A DNA stretch of 62,494 bases, the filler included, from Sanchytrium tribonematis (Eukaryota), in the NCBI GenBank assembly GCA_018985235.1. It is 16 parts of 16 records of this genome, joined end to end, with 100 filler letters (N's around TTAATTAATTAA, not from the genome) between each part and the next. Parts side by side here need not be neighbours in the genome. Positions count along the whole stretch, not along the records: positions 28,238 to 48,568 come from JADGIG010000099.1; 15 more parts are not named here. The stretch is one strand, 5' to 3'. The position numbers and the translations under genes are program-made. This document shows, in pieces, positions 33,209 to 45,090 of this stretch (position 1 is its first letter; the number at the start of each line of letters is the position of its first letter). The notes under the pieces were generated by a model. The model did no database searches. It saw only the letters and a list, made by a program, of their open reading frames with translations, and was not told where the DNA came from.

Positions 33209-34532
33209 ATGAATTTCGAGTCAGACGATCTTGATTTGACGTTTGATGCAGGAGAAAGGCCAAATTTTCCAAATTTTGGGCAATTGCCAACAACAAAGGA
33301 TCTTTATAGCTTAAATAATGTACATAAGGTCTTGAGGGATATTACCAAAGCAACTGTCACATCATCCATAGAGACTTTTTTAATTATTATGAAAGACGGG
33401 TTGGAGGAAGACTTGATTACCTTGTTAAAATGGTTTTCTTCTAAAAAATGTACGATATTTGTCGAAAGAAAATACAGAGATATTGTAAATGAGAAAGGAA
33501 TTGTATGCTTAATCAATTTTTATTCAGTTACACCCAATTGCGATCTAATTATTACACTTGGTGGTGATGGTACCGTTTTGTATTCTAGCTGGATGTATCA
33601 AAGAATTGTTCCACCTGTTATAGCATTTCACCTCGGGTCTTTGGGATTTTTGACGGTCTTTGACTTTGAGAAACATACTGAGATTTTAGATCGAATTTGG
33701 AAAGGCTCTGGGGTGAGAGTATCAATGCGAATGCGTTTGCAATGTCAAGTTCACAAACTGCAAACAACTAGAGAAGGTAGGATTGAGAAGAAGAAAAATG
33801 TTAAAAAAAGACGATCGGTGTCCGAGACATCGCGGTCACTTACATCCCTTAACTCAGACACAAATTCAGCTCGGGATTATATGGAAGTACCGCCTTCACC
33901 TTTACAATCATTGCGCCTTCTAGCACAAACATTACAAGGAAATGAAGATTATGACGAAGACACTTTACACGTTCTGAATGAAGTAGTCATTGACCGTGGG
34001 CCTTGCCCATTTTTAACGTCTTTGGAAGTATGGGGGGATGGCGCGCTGTTGACGATATGTCAGGCAGACGGACTAGTTATATCTACGCCTACTGGATCGA
34101 CTGCGTATAGTTTGAGTGCTGGTGGTAGTCTGTGTCATCCTGATGTCCATGCGATTTTGGTTACTCCAATTTGCCCTCATACTTTAAGGTAAATACTTTT
34201 TATGAAGTTTTAGGCCAATGATATTGCCAGAGTGCATGGAGCTCAAAATAAGGGTACCCTTGAATTCCAGAAACAATGCTTGGGCTTCATTTGATGGTAA
34301 ACACAGAATTGAATTACACAAGGGCGATTTCGTCACTATTAAAAATTCCCCATTTCCCTTTCCTACTGTGTCCAGTGAAAACACCACTGATGACTGGTTC
34401 AATAGCCTTCAGAGATGTCTTAAGTGGAACGAAAGAGTCATTCAGAAACCTTTGGATTCGGATAGTCGGAGGCTTGATAAACAGTCACGAAGATTATCTA
34501 CTATACCTTCGGAAAGCGAAAACTATCTTTAA
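33209..34532 (+). CDS. NAD kinase; 19-nt intron at 34189-34207
   Basis: LGGDGT, LNEVVIDRG, STPTGSTAYSLSAGG; splicing restores TPICPHTLSFRPMILP. Confidence 0.96.
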
Positions 34533-40594: not shown

Positions 40595-41722
40595 ATGACA
40601 ACGAGATTCAATGACTGTTTGGGGATGCCGGTTTGCATAGAAGATATGGAAAAATATATGATATTTCTGCCTAAATCAACTCGAGACTACTACACAAGTG
40701 GATCCGATGATCAGGAAACTTTGCGAATTAACAAATCATCATTTTCTAAATATTTGTTTATTCCTCGTGTTTTGAGAAATGTCAAAAATGTAGATCTGAC
40801 ATGTCATGTGAAAATTGGAGAAGAAATTTTAAATTTAGATTCGCCGATTTGGTTTAGTCCAACTGCTTTCCAAAGGTTAGCTCATCATGATGGAGAAGTT
40901 GCAGTAGCGTCAGCTGCTAAGAAAAGGAACATTGTAAATACGCTTTCAAGTTGGTCCACCACTTCATTAGAAGATGCGTTTCGTCTATCAAATGGAGATG
41001 GTGGGATCTTCTTTTTGCAACTTTATGTCTATAAAGATCGAAAGCTTGTTGCTGATTTGGTCAGAAGAGCAGAGAAAACAGGATATTTTGCATTGTCGGT
41101 CACAGTTGATACCCCCAGGCTTGGTACAAGGAGAGATGACGTTAGGAATTCATTTGCATTGCCACCACATTTAAGTCTTGCAAATTACAGCACCAATGCC
41201 AAGAATCTGGACAAAGTGGACAAAGCATCTGGATTAGCAGCTTACGTTGCAGCACAAACCGATCCATCGTTGACATGGGATGATATCATTTGGCTTAGAA
41301 CTATTACCAAAATGAAAATCTTAGTTAAGGGAATATTAAGTCCAGAGGACGCCAAATTAGCCATGGAATACAAAATGGATGGTATAATAGTTAGTAATCA
41401 TGGAGGTAGGCAATTAAATTCGTGCATTTCCACCATAGACGCTCTTTCTTCAATTGTGAAAGTGACTCAAAAGAAGATTCCCGTATTTGTAGATGGCGGT
41501 ATCCGAACAGGTAATGATGTTGCAAAATGCCTTTGTTTAGGCGCCGATGCAGTGTTTTTAGGACGACCAGTGCTTTATGGATTGACATATAACGGGCAAA
41601 TGGGTGTGGAGTTAATGCATAACATCATTCATGAAGAATTGTATTTGACAATGTCACTGCTAGGTTGTACGAAACTGAATCAGTTAAATCTGTCCTATAT
41701 CATTCACAACAGTAAATTATAG
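40595..41722 (+). CDS. Peroxisomal FMN-dependent 2-hydroxyacid (glycolate) oxidase
   Basis: TVDTPRLG, VSNHGGRQL, DGGIRTG; C-terminal SKL (PTS1). Confidence 0.95.
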   Translation: MTTRFNDCLGMPVCIEDMEKYMIFLPKSTRDYYTSGSDDQETLRINKSSFSKYLFIPRVLRNVKNVDLTCHVKIGEEILNLDSPIWFSPTAFQRLAHHDGEVAVASAAKKRNIVNTLSSWSTTSLEDAFRLSNGDGGIFFLQLYVYKDRKLVADLVRRAEKTGYFALSVTVDTPRLGTRRDDVRNSFALPPHLSLANYSTNAKNLDKVDKASGLAAYVAAQTDPSLTWDDIIWLRTITKMKILVKGILSPEDAKLAMEYKMDGIIVSNHGGRQLNSCISTIDALSSIVKVTQKKIPVFVDGGIRTGNDVAKCLCLGADAVFLGRPVLYGLTYNGQMGVELMHNIIHEELYLTMSLLGCTKLNQLNLSYIIHNSKL

Positions 41723-41811
41723 CTTACTTTGCCCCAGATTTTCTACCAATCACAGCGTCTAGATTTTTTTATTTCAGGTTTCTCGGTCAACAATTTTTAA
41801 AACCGATTTTT

Positions 41812-41895
41812 ATGGAAAATGGCTACAATCATACTAATGAGAAAGTTTGCAACGACTACATTGATGAGCAAGTTTACAAAACCGCAACATACTGA
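41812..41895 (+). promoter_or_regulatory. Arginine attenuator peptide (AAP)-like uORF, 27 aa, overlapping the CPA1 N-terminus out of frame
   Basis: Translates to MENGYNHTNEKVCNDYIDEQVYKTATY*, which aligns without gaps to the yeast CPA1 AAP core TCQDYISDHIWKTSSH. Confidence 0.8.
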
Positions 41896-43036
41896 TGCGA
41901 TTTTAACTTTAAAAAATGGAATCAAGTTTGACGCGAAAAATTATGGAACTGAAGTCAAGAAACCATTATTAGGGGAGATTGTGTTCACAACCTCTCAAAC
42001 AGGATATGTTGAGAGTATGACGGATAAAAGCTACACCGGCCAAATTCTAGCTTTTTCAACTCCGTTAATTGGTAATTACGGAGTTCCAGACACCAGAAAA
42101 ACGGATAGATTCGGGCTACCGCTATTTGGTGAATCGTTCGACATTCACGCCAGTGCAATCGTGGTTCAAGACTACGCATTGAGATACTCTCATTTCAATG
42201 CAATTAAAAGCTTAGCAGAATGGTGCAAGGAACAAGCTGTGCCTTTATTGTCAGGAGTTGACATCCGCAGATTGATTCATGCTATTCGAGATGGAAATTC
42301 AATGGCTTCAGTCGGAAATGGCAAGTGTTACCAAATTGAACCTCAAAATCAAAAAAATTTGGTCAAAGGTGTTTCTACAAAGCAGTCCTACCATATCAAT
42401 CCTTCAGGTAAGTATAGAGTAGCCCTCTTGGACTTTGGTGCAAAAGTTGGCATATTGCGGGAACTTGTCAACCGAAATTGCGCCATTCATGTGTATCCAT
42501 GGGATACCGATTTGAGCACGGTTTTGCGATATCAAAGTTTTGACGGTATCTTTTTATCAAATGGACCCGGTGATCCTGCTGCCCTCGAAAAACCTATTAG
42601 CAATTTGAGAAAAACATTAGAATTTCTTCAAGTTAAAAATCCCAAAATGCCAGTATTTGGGATCTGCATGGGACATCAATTACTTTCTCACGCTCTGGGT
42701 TTACAAACTTACAAGTTGGGCTATGGAAATCGTGGTCACAATCAACCAGTGCAATGTAATGAAACAAAAAAATTATTTATTACTAGCCAAAATCATGGAT
42801 ACGCTGTCAATATTCCTGAAAATGGAACAATTAGCCATTTTGGGCATGTGTATCCATCGTTTACCAACCTTAATGACGGTAGTAACGAGGGAATCAAGCA
42901 CGTTCATTACCCTTGGAATTCAGTTCAATTTCATCCTGAGGCTGCCTCTGGTCCATATGATTGCAAAAATTATTTTGATCTCTTTGTTAGAAAAGCTGCA
43001 GTTTTCAAAAATTTTGGACAAATAGCTCGCATTTGA
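41819..43036 (+). CDS. CPA1: Carbamoyl-phosphate synthase small (glutaminase) subunit, arginine-specific
   Basis: GEIVFTT, PLIGNYG, LSNGPGDP, catalytic GICMGHQ, SQNHGYAV, QFHPEA; presequence-like N-terminus. Confidence 0.96.
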   Translation: MATIILMRKFATTTLMSKFTKPQHTDAILTLKNGIKFDAKNYGTEVKKPLLGEIVFTTSQTGYVESMTDKSYTGQILAFSTPLIGNYGVPDTRKTDRFGLPLFGESFDIHASAIVVQDYALRYSHFNAIKSLAEWCKEQAVPLLSGVDIRRLIHAIRDGNSMASVGNGKCYQIEPQNQKNLVKGVSTKQSYHINPSGKYRVALLDFGAKVGILRELVNRNCAIHVYPWDTDLSTVLRYQSFDGIFLSNGPGDPAALEKPISNLRKTLEFLQVKNPKMPVFGICMGHQLLSHALGLQTYKLGYGNRGHNQPVQCNETKKLFITSQNHGYAVNIPENGTISHFGHVYPSFTNLNDGSNEGIKHVHYPWNSVQFHPEAASGPYDCKNYFDLFVRKAAVFKNFGQIARI

Positions 43037-43126: not shown

Positions 43127-44138
43127 ATGTCAAGTGCCAATGCTTCTAGAGAAGAGTCATCTTCAGCCATGATTGACATTACTGAACTGGGAAAACATGG
43201 GATCAATGCTGCTGATATCGCAAAATTGAAAAATGCAGGAGTTTGCACAATTAAAGGTCTTCAAATGACAGCTAGAAAAAACTTGTTGAAAGTGAAAGGT
43301 CTTAGTGATACCAAAGTGGACAAAATGAAAGAAGCTGCAGGGAAAATCTGTAGCTCTGGATTTATGAGTGCTCAAGACCTCGAAAAACAGCGAGAGTCTG
43401 TTGTTAAAATATCAACTGGAAGTAAAGAATTTGACAAATTGCTTGGCGGTGGCATTGAAACCCAAAGCATCACTGAAGTGCATGGAGAATTCAGATGTGG
43501 TAAAACTCAGTTGGCTCACACTTTATGCGTTACTTGCCAGCTATCTACCGATGACCATCCTGGTGGAAAGGCAGCTGTAATAGATACAGAGGGCACATTT
43601 AGACCAGAGAAATTGAGAGCTATCGCGGAAAGATTTGAAATGGATCCAGATGAAGTCACTGAGAATGTTATTTATGCTCGAGCGTTCAATAGTGAGCACC
43701 AAATGGAATTGCTGACAGAATTAGCCGCTACATTCGCTCAAGACAAGACCTTTCGACTTCTAGTCGTAGATTCTATAATTGCATTATTTAGAACCGATTA
43801 TAGTGGAAGAGGTGAACTTGCCGACAGGCAACAGAAGCTCAATGGGTTCTTGGCCAACTTGCAAAGAATAGCGGAAGAATTTAATGTAGCTGTTTATATT
43901 ACAAACCAAATGATGAGCGACCCTGGTGGAATGAGTTTCGGTCCAGATAAAAAAGCTGTTGGCGGTCATGTCCTAGCACATGCTGCTGCCACTAGAATTG
44001 CCTTGAGAAAGGGTAGAGGAGATTCCAGAATGGCCAAAATGTAAATGATACTTATTTAGTGTAGACAGTCCAGATATGCCTGAAGCCGAAGCTACATATG
44101 GCCTGTCAGGTGCAGGTATAATTGATGCACAAGAGTAA
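43127..44138 (+). CDS. DMC1: Meiotic recombinase DMC1; 19-nt intron at 44041-44059
   Basis: GEFRCGKTQL and GGHVLAHA; splicing restores MAKIVDSPDMPEAEA, where DSPDMPE is DMC1-type rather than RAD51 DSPCLPE. Confidence 0.93.
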
Positions 44139-44168: not shown

Positions 44169-45090
44169 ATGTTAGAGGAAGATCAAGATCATACTTGTTT
44201 AGTTTGCCTAGAAGAGCTCACTGAATTATTTATACCATGCGATTGCAATTTTCCGATTTGCCAATTCTGCTGGAACCAAATATTAAACGAAGACGGAAGG
44301 TGTCCGAATTGTAGAAGGTCTTATGAAGCAAATAGATACAAAATTGAACCACTTCCCAAAAAGCTAAAAATACAACCAGAAAGAATGAAATTGCAAAATG
44401 TTCGAGTGCTACAGAAAAATTTGGTATATGTGAGTGGGTTTACAGGCGTTGTATCAGACAGCCTTCTTCAATCTCCACAATATTTCGGGCAGTTTGGACC
44501 AATTCACAAGATTGTTATCAATAGGAAACTTGGCCAAGTACCAAATTTACCAAATGACTCTATTGGGGTTTATATAACATTTGAAGGTGAAAAGGCAGCA
44601 CATTCAGCAATCGAGGCAGTTGATGGTAATTTAAATTTATAAAGGGAGTATGTGGCAGGGTCAAAGATTAAGAGCTAGGCATGGCACCACAAAGTACTGC
44701 ATTCATTTTTTAAAAAGTCAGCCATGTCAGAATACAGAATGTATGTATCTTCATAAATTGAGCGACGATCATCTTACAAAGGAAGATTTGGCTCAACTTA
44801 GCACTACTCAGACTAAGAAATATAGTTCACACAAAACCTTTGGCCCTCAGGCCGCGGATTTATCGTACCTCCTCAGGTCTTTCGCGGAACGCATAGAAGA
44901 TTTTCGGCTCAATCCCCCAAAGCAACAATTTTCAAATACAGGCCAATTGCCTCCAAGAGCTCCAAGTGTAAATATACAATTAGGTACTCCGAGTTTATGT
45001 CAAAGATGGATCAGTATGAATGCAGAGTTGTATCATGATGAAAAGAAATTCAACCCTTTCGCTGAGGAGAGTGCGTTATCATCGAAATAA
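44169..45090 (+). CDS. NOT4: CCR4-NOT E3 ligase NOT4 (RING-RRM-CCCH); 19-nt intron at 44626-44644
   Basis: C4C4 RING, NVRVLQKNLVYV, YFGQFG; splicing gives AVDGSMWQGQRLRARHGTTKYC. Confidence 0.93.

What the first reader, a model, noticed from the sequence alone, without database searches (positions are those of the whole stretch)
41812..41895. Arginine attenuator peptide uORF overprinted on the CPA1 mitochondrial presequence
An ATG 7 nt upstream of the CPA1 ATG opens a different frame: MENGYNHTNEKVCNDYIDEQVYKTATY*. Its core VCNDYIDEQVYKTATY aligns without gaps with S. cerevisiae TCQDYISDHIWKTSSH and N. crassa TSQDYLSDHLWRALNA (sequences recalled). The key Asp-Tyr is kept, the key Trp becomes Tyr, and the distance to the stop matches yeast. 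In the model fungi the AAP lies in the 5' leader, where the Arg-stalled ribosome blocks scanning. Here 77 nt are dual-coding and the stop lies inside CPA1, about where the conserved domain begins and downstream of the in-frame ATGs at 41819, 41837 and 41864. I infer that a stalled ribosome would roadblock elongating CPA1 ribosomes and that reinitiation could not make a targeted protein.
Basis: partly seen in the sequence, partly recalled or inferred. Interest (0 to 1): 0.88.

Follow-up and report, generated by a model that had tools for sequence, protein, structure and literature searches.

The report
Arginine sensor overlapping CPA1 targeting peptide
In this alga-parasite-type fungus, a diverged copy of the known arginine-sensing mini-gene is written in a second reading frame over the first 26 codons of the arginine-synthesis gene CPA1, a layout likely shared by its relatives, so a ribosome predicted to stall on it would block CPA1 synthesis from inside the gene rather than in front of it.

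Summary
Real, and a variant of a known system. The 27-codon ORF (41812-41895) overlaps CPA1 by 77 nt. It is a homologue of the fungal arginine attenuator peptide (AAP): top hit of 2474 six-frame segments with profiles built from other fungi (E 3e-8), and 14/21 identical to a separate, likely chytrid, uORF. Pfam misses it and the key Trp is Tyr. CPA1 groups with three relatives, one from Amoeboradix gromovi. None of 31 metagenome loci with both an AAP hit and a CPA1 ATG overlaps. One correction: the AAP frame is the old one, and the presequence-like N-terminus was probably overprinted on it. Arg-dependent stalling, the transcript start and import are untested. This scan earlier noted an AAP crossing the CPA1 start in a basidiomycete and an in-frame fused AAP in a yeast (unchecked notes).

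The parts
41812..41895 (+). AAP-homologous uORF, 27 codons plus TGA; start context TTTT-ATG-G (U at -3, weak)
41839..41847 (+). E-K-V motif shared with AAP uORFs of loci L005 and L061; Glu is forced in the hidden frame of all three relatives
41854..41859 (+). Asp15-Tyr16, equivalent to N. crassa Asp-12/Tyr-13; the only invariant columns in alignment A3
41875..41877 (+). Tyr22 at the position of the AAP Trp (Trp in 15 of 17 fetched uORFs, Tyr in 1, Val in 1)
41893..41895 (+). uORF stop codon TGA, the predicted stall site, inside CPA1 codons 25-26
   Evidence: stall inferred from PMC4505036 and PMC7969011 passages
41819..43036 (+). CPA1, stand-alone carbamoyl-phosphate synthetase small subunit, 405 aa, start context GAAA-ATG-G (A at -3, strong)
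41819..41896 (+). CPA1 residues 1-26: N-terminal extension beyond the bacterial start, presequence-like (4 K/R, no D/E, 7 S/T in the first 25), encoded in the +1 frame of the uORF
41723..41811 (+). 89-nt gap after the upstream FMN-dependent oxidase gene, where the CPA1 transcript most likely starts; no 19-nt intron and no stable RNA fold

Best explanation
The 27-codon frame is a diverged homologue of the fungal arginine attenuator peptide that overlaps the first 26 codons of CPA1, and it likely still works as an arginine brake, with ribosomes predicted to stall at its stop codon inside the CPA1 coding sequence. Shown: homology, the overlap, the weak upstream and strong main start contexts, the Asp-to-stop spacing. 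Inferred from relatives' proteins: the overlap is kept across a four-member sanchytrid-like clade. Inferred by analogy: most scanning subunits would pass the weak AUG at 41812 and start CPA1 at 41819; at low Arg the few uORF ribosomes terminate quickly; at high Arg one stalls with TGA 41893-41895 in the A site. Both AUGs lie 71-78 nt upstream of the stall's P-site codon, so the stall cannot hide the CPA1 AUG from scanning subunits directly. CPA1-frame ribosomes would run into it after about 14 codons, and a queue of two (30-nt footprints) would back up over the start codons. Collision quality control and nonsense-mediated decay would add to the repression. Origin (inferred): genome compaction removed the spacer and old presequence, and the acid-poor, Ser/Thr-rich +1 frame of the AAP became the new N-terminus of CPA1.
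For: Profile homology and 14/21 identity to the free-standing uORF of L005, Tyr included. Hidden-frame test: P0002-P0004 score 23-25 bits in the window's register; best of 80 other homologue N-termini 14.6, best of 37 window proteins 5.4, 0 of 3000 shuffles each, other frame below 0. With 17 locus-only AAPs 19.8-21.7 bits; random substitution of the window's segment to the same divergence reaches that in 1, 2 and 1 of 4000 (0, 5, 0 of 4000 at the same sites). Asp-Tyr and a stop stay possible in all three, the stop as TAA in one and TGA in two. P0002 and P0004 have Trp or Cys just before their CPA1 Met1, which allows a uATG at -4 (4.8% of non-stop triplets are such codons). Clade support 100/100. 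The +1 frame of ordinary AAP uORFs has no Asp/Glu in 13 of 17 and is open in 7 of 17. Leaky scanning, stalling at the stop and NMD are established for yeast/Neurospora AAP (passages of PMC7969011, PMC11550727).
Against: Trp-19 is called important for stalling (PMC3299997 passage); it is Tyr here and can only be Phe/Leu/Pro/Ser or Phe/Leu/Gln in the relatives. Pfam PF08252 does not score the peptide. Conservation is read from proteins, not DNA, and the substitution control does not model selection on a presequence, so its odds are optimistic. Raw N-terminal identity among the four (9-11 of 22) is only moderately high: 147 of 1734 comparable pairs reach 9. The hydrophobic moment of the N-terminus (0.41) is below the median of other CPA1 proteins (0.55) and of window proteins (0.47), and acid-poverty is common to +1 frames (315 of 463 open background frames), so 'presequence' is weakly supported. 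-3 bases at the 53 first ATGs of the window show no clear preference.
Confidence: 0.58

Rival explanations
1. The frame is an AAP homologue under selection but no longer senses arginine: it is a constitutive overlapping uORF, or responds to another signal, and only dampens CPA1.
For: Trp replaced in all four clade members; fails PF08252; these fungi are reduced parasites (PMC8371127 passages).
Against: Asp-Tyr, the Asp-to-stop spacing and the E-K-V motif are kept, which a constitutive uORF does not need; a free-standing uORF (L005) also has Tyr.
Confidence: 0.2
2. Arg-dependent stalling occurs, but repression comes mainly from more initiation at the uAUG and from mRNA decay, as in yeast, and collisions with CPA1-frame ribosomes add little.
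For: AAP stalling raises uORF initiation about 2-fold and single dwells lengthen only modestly (PMC7969011 passages); the two AUGs are 7 nt apart and compete.
Against: With the stop inside the coding sequence every CPA1-frame ribosome must pass the stall site.
Confidence: 0.15
3. Ribosomes shift +1 at the uORF stop, as on antizyme mRNA, and make an AAP-CPA1 fusion without the presequence, a cytosolic form.
For: A +1 shift at the stop lands on CPA1 Asp26, just before the conserved domain.
Against: The codon before the stop is not conserved (His/Tyr in two relatives, Phe/Leu/Gln in one); no stable RNA structure (z 0.38); any overlap in this frame has that geometry.
Confidence: 0.04
4. The frame is not translated as a uORF: it is a chance by-product of the CPA1 N-terminus, the transcript starts after 41812, or it is a 3' exon of the upstream oxidase through a 26-nt intron at 41712.
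For: Overlapping upstream ATGs are common here: 14 of 53 ORFs have one within 60 nt; the frame is open from 41716 and a GT-AG of 26 nt could join it to the upstream gene; intergenic gaps are very short.
Against: Profile homology and register conservation; the upstream protein ends in SKL, a peroxisomal signal (motif meaning recalled); homology-supported introns here are 19 nt.
Confidence: 0.03

Closest known systems
Arginine attenuator peptide uORF of N. crassa arg-2 and S. cerevisiae CPA1 (Pfam PF08252 Leader_CPA1)
   Same: Short AUG-initiated frame at the 5' end of the arginine-pathway CPS small subunit gene; Asp-Tyr 13 codons before the stop; weak start context ahead of a strong one.
   Different: Its stop lies 77 nt inside CPA1 instead of in the leader; Trp is Tyr; below the Pfam model; the same DNA encodes the enzyme's N-terminus.
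Free-standing AAP-like uORFs of early-diverging fungi fetched here (L005, L061, L008, L026)
   Same: E-K-V or similar before Asp-Tyr; L005 is 14/21 identical and has the same Tyr.
   Different: They end 34-520 nt before their CPA1 ATG.
Out-of-frame overlapping uORFs in general (a standard class in PMC11550727; 443 candidates in K. marxianus, bioRxiv 2022.03.25.485750; passages)
   Same: Upstream AUG in another frame with a stop inside the main ORF; excludes forward reinitiation.
   Different: Here the overlapping frame is a conserved metabolite-sensing arrest-peptide homologue, not just a competing start.
Earlier unchecked notes of this scan: e1-7588743 (basidiomycete AAP crossing the CPA1 AUG) and e1-7147505 (yeast AAP fused in frame as N-terminus)
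   Same: AAP merged with the CPA1 5' end.
   Different: Other lineages; here nearly the whole AAP, core included, is dual-coded out of frame, with evidence of clade-wide conservation.

Membership tests
Arginine attenuator peptide (PF08252) | AUG-initiated short ORF at the 5' end of the arginine-specific CPS small-subunit gene | tested here: met
Arginine attenuator peptide (PF08252) | Sequence homology to AAPs by profile | tested here: met
   Own HMMs from fetched uORFs, some Pfam-positive: first of 2474 segments, E 3e-8 to 6e-4
Arginine attenuator peptide (PF08252) | Score above the Pfam gathering cut-off | tested here: not met
   No hit; 6 of the 10 other uORFs scanned also miss the cut-off (5 no hit, 1 below)
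Arginine attenuator peptide (PF08252) | Asp-12/Tyr-13 and Asp 13 codons before the stop | tested here: met
   Asp-12 role from PMC7038982 passage; Tyr-13 role recalled
Arginine attenuator peptide (PF08252) | Trp-19 | tested here: not met
   Tyr22; Trp impossible in the three relatives; Trp in 15 of 17 fetched uORFs
Arginine attenuator peptide (PF08252) | uORF ends upstream of the CPA1 AUG, so the stall blocks scanning | tested here: not met
   77-nt overlap; 0 of 31 comparable loci overlap
Arginine attenuator peptide (PF08252) | Weak uAUG context allowing leaky scanning | tested here: inconclusive
   U at -3 against A at -3 for CPA1, but no clear -3 preference among 53 first ATGs
Arginine attenuator peptide (PF08252) | Arg-dependent, peptide-dependent ribosome stalling | not testable with these tools
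   Needs toeprint or reporter
Arginine attenuator peptide (PF08252) | uAUG lies on the CPA1 transcript | not testable with these tools
   No RNA data were available to lay
Mitochondrial presequence | N-terminal extension, basic, acid-free, Ser/Thr-rich, R-x-[FLY]-[AS] motif | tested here: met
   (all four clade members; 2 of 38 window proteins are acid-free with 3 or more K/R); motif meaning recalled
Mitochondrial presequence | Amphipathic helix | tested here: inconclusive
   Moment 0.41-0.56 in the four against medians 0.55 and 0.47
Mitochondrial presequence | Directs import and is cleaved | not testable with these tools
   Needs fusion or import assay

The most novel reading that the evidence does not exclude
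Across sanchytrid-like fungi a mitochondrial presequence was born from the +1 frame of the arginine attenuator, giving a conserved dual-coded element in which a Trp-less arrest peptide stalls inside the gene it controls and represses it as a cross-frame roadblock to elongating ribosomes.
Probability: 0.42. Interest if true: 0.72.

Novelty: new variant of a known kind. Interest (0 to 1): 0.54.

Why it matters
It would show that a well-studied eukaryotic arrest peptide survives genome compaction by sharing DNA with the enzyme's N-terminus, which moves control from blocked scanning to collisions between ribosomes in two frames. It gives natural Trp-19 variants (Tyr here, probably Phe or Leu in relatives) for testing which residues arginine sensing needs, and a dated, directional case of a targeting signal arising by overprinting. 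The switch itself and overlapping uORFs as a class are known, which caps the surprise.

Tried and rejected
No whole genome was held. Sequencing runs: one DNA holder, possibly the source; no RNA holder listed, so nothing on expression or transcript start. A clade-specific DNA pattern found 0 matches in metagenome contigs; the broader scan kept the best 80 of 406 relatives, best-segment identity 42-58%, none of this clade that I could recognise. Short-protein search gave two fragments that look bacterial and lack the extension. PDB sequence search with the peptide: 0 hits. The 59-codon open frame against 1.84 billion representatives: 0 hits. P0011 residues 1-45 found only itself. Pfam: no hit for the peptide. 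Sigma-70 scan is not relevant to a eukaryote. RNA fold of 41760-41960: z 0.38. Two tree scripts failed (in part, 58). An intron inside the uORF was rejected: only 24- and 28-nt GT-AG spans with a non-GTAA donor. The null outlier P0033 (14.6 bits) was not followed up. Primary AAP papers and the 2020 review were not held, so an overlapping AAP in their alignments or supplements cannot be excluded.

Full report
Observation. The window holds an ATG at 41812 that opens 27 codons and ends in TGA at 41895. CPA1 begins at 41819 in the +1 frame and runs to 43036, so 77 nt are shared. CPA1 is a 405-aa stand-alone carbamoyl-phosphate synthetase small subunit (PF00988 from residue 29, PF00117), and its best named hits are fungal small subunits. 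The upstream FMN-dependent oxidase gene stops at 41722, leaving 89 nt. The single contig across the uORF shows no other letters there, but the run may be the source of the window.

Organism. The three closest proteins (P0002-P0004, 62-64% identical) include one from Amoeboradix gromovi; the other two are unnamed. The four form a clade at 100/100 on a long stem, the window's protein branching first (35 rows; midpoint root, placement among fungi unresolved). I call it sanchytrid-like; sanchytrids are algal parasites (PMC10459994, abstract start in listing) with small genomes of about 35% G+C (PMC8371127 passages). The window is 33.6% G+C counted over all letters.

Is the peptide an AAP? Pfam gives no hit. 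To avoid recalled sequences I fetched 80 CPA1-related loci from metagenomes (best 80 of 406) and collected their upstream peptides. Of 10 scanned, 4 pass PF08252 Leader_CPA1, 1 scores below the cut-off and 5 give no hit, so the Pfam model is narrow. HMMs from 17 such uORFs, from 16 without the nearest look-alike and from the 15 Trp-bearing ones each rank the window's frame first of 2474 six-frame segments (E 3.1e-8, 9.5e-6, 5.7e-4), with 0 of 5000 shuffles as high. A profile of 7 mostly ascomycete-type peptides does not. The uORF of L005, whose CPA1 looks chytrid-like to me, is 14/21 identical, has the same Tyr at the Trp position and ends 144 nt before its CPA1 ATG. Asp-Tyr is invariant in alignment A3 and stands 13 codons before the stop, as in the Pfam-positive peptides. 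It is an AAP homologue by descent. I do not file it as a canonical member, since Trp-19, the Pfam threshold and the non-overlapping layout are not met.

Is the overlap unusual? In 31 of the 80 loci both an AAP hit of 12 bits or more and a CPA1-frame ATG could be read; in all 31 the uORF ends 12-520 nt before that ATG (some ATG calls are doubtful where introns intervene, and two pairs are near-duplicates). The other 49 lack an ATG call or an AAP hit. Searches for an overlapping AAP in print gave none in listings or in the passages read. The primary papers and their supplements were not held, so this is weak. Earlier AI notes of this scan report an AAP crossing the CPA1 AUG in a basidiomycete and an in-frame fusion in a yeast (not checked).

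Is it conserved? No DNA of the relatives could be had. Their CPA1 N-termini align with the window's without gaps, Met1 and Met7 kept. I summed over all back-translations the likelihood that each N-terminus hides an AAP with its stop in the frame one base upstream. P0002-P0004 score 23.5, 24.6 and 23.0 bits in the window's register; the best of 80 other homologue N-termini scores 14.6 (mean -4.1), the best of 37 window proteins 5.4; 0 of 3000 shuffles reach them; the other frame scores below 0 (training included the P0005 and P0011 cores). With locus-only training the scores are 21.7, 21.0, 19.8, and 21.4, 19.0, 18.4 without L005 and L061. To control for shared ancestry, the window's segment was substituted at 12-15 of 22 sites: 1, 2 and 1 of 4000 reach the observed score, and 0, 5 and 0 of 4000 when the same sites change. 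Column by column, Glu10 and Ile/Val21 are forced, Asp15-Tyr16 are allowed, and a stop is allowed at codon 28 as TAA in one and TGA in two. P0002 and P0004 carry Trp or Cys just before Met1, allowing a uATG at -4; each has one more such site further up. Limits: this is compatibility, not sequence; the control ignores selection on a presequence; raw N-terminal identity is only moderately high (147 of 1734 comparable pairs reach 9 of 22). Against function, Trp is impossible at that position in all three relatives.

Direction of overprinting. The uORF matches free-standing uORFs across the overlap (12 of 19 residues, 38 of 60 nt with L005), and its stop falls where bacterial homologues begin. The +1 frame of ordinary AAP uORFs is acid-free in 13 of 17 and open with at most one acidic residue in 7 of 17, against 315 of 3000 background stretches. 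So the AAP frame is the older, and CPA1 residues 1-26 were probably recruited from its +1 frame after loss of the spacer and old presequence (inference). Those residues are basic, acid-free and Ser/Thr-rich like other fungal CPA1 N-termini, but amphipathicity is unremarkable and acid-poverty is generic to +1 frames, so import is plausible, not shown.

Mechanism. In yeast and Neurospora a weak uAUG is mostly bypassed, Arg stalls the uORF ribosome at its stop, uORF initiation rises and the mRNA becomes an NMD target; D12N or D13N abolishes this (passages of PMC7969011, PMC7038982, PMC11550727, PMC4505036). Here the contexts fit leaky scanning, though the genome's -3 preference is unclear. The stall's P-site codon would be 41890-41892, 71 nt from the CPA1 AUG. 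With 30-nt footprints (the modelling assumption of PMC9648851) a CPA1-frame ribosome collides after about 14 codons and two queued ribosomes cover the start region. Forward reinitiation gives only a protein cut inside the CPSase domain. All of this is inferred. Trp-19 is described as important (PMC3299997 passage), so loss of Arg sensing is the main rival (0.2), then control mainly through initiation and decay (0.15), +1 frameshifting (0.04) and no translation (0.03).

Verdict. A real, probably clade-conserved, dual-coded variant of a known switch. New variant of a known kind; interest 0.54.

Noticed in passing
window 34189-34207 (+), 44041-44059 (+), 44626-44644 (+); candidates 46806 (+), 15869 (+), 13646 (-): 19-nt GTAA...AG introns. 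Removing them restores the frame of an NAD kinase, a Rad51/DMC1-family protein and a NOT4-like RING protein (motifs judged from recall). 19 nt is the commonest length among frame-joining candidates (5 of 19), though only weakly enriched among all GTAA..AG spans (38 against 20-35). That is very short for a fungus; a search for Amoeboradix plus intron and the passages of PMC8371127 showed no report. Worth its own follow-up.
   Followed up: partly
P0011 residues 1-45; P0005 residues 1-40: AAP-like cores in frame at the CPA1 N-terminus with no stop. P0011 may be a true in-frame fusion (Leu at the Trp position); P0005 may read into an intron after Asp-Tyr. A search with P0011 1-45 found only itself.
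   Followed up: partly
L005:206-286, L061:39-122: Free-standing AAP-like uORFs with Tyr or Val at the Trp position, so this position is relaxed in some early-diverging fungi without any overlap.
   Followed up: partly
window 40564 (-) / 40595 (+): Divergent RabGAP and FMN-oxidase ORFs have first ATGs only 30 nt apart, pointing to very short leaders or promoters inside neighbouring genes.
   Followed up: no
window 42335-42547: Eleven single-letter differences on minor contigs within CPA1 in run X1: two alleles or strains; none in the dual-coded region.
   Followed up: no
window 2742-59825: The window is a string of contigs joined by 15 N-linkers of 100 letters; the locus lies on the 20-kb piece 28238-48568.
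   Followed up: yes
P0033 residues 22-43: A chytrid CPA1 N-terminus scores 14.6 bits in the hidden-frame test, the top of the null set; chance or another overlap.
   Followed up: no
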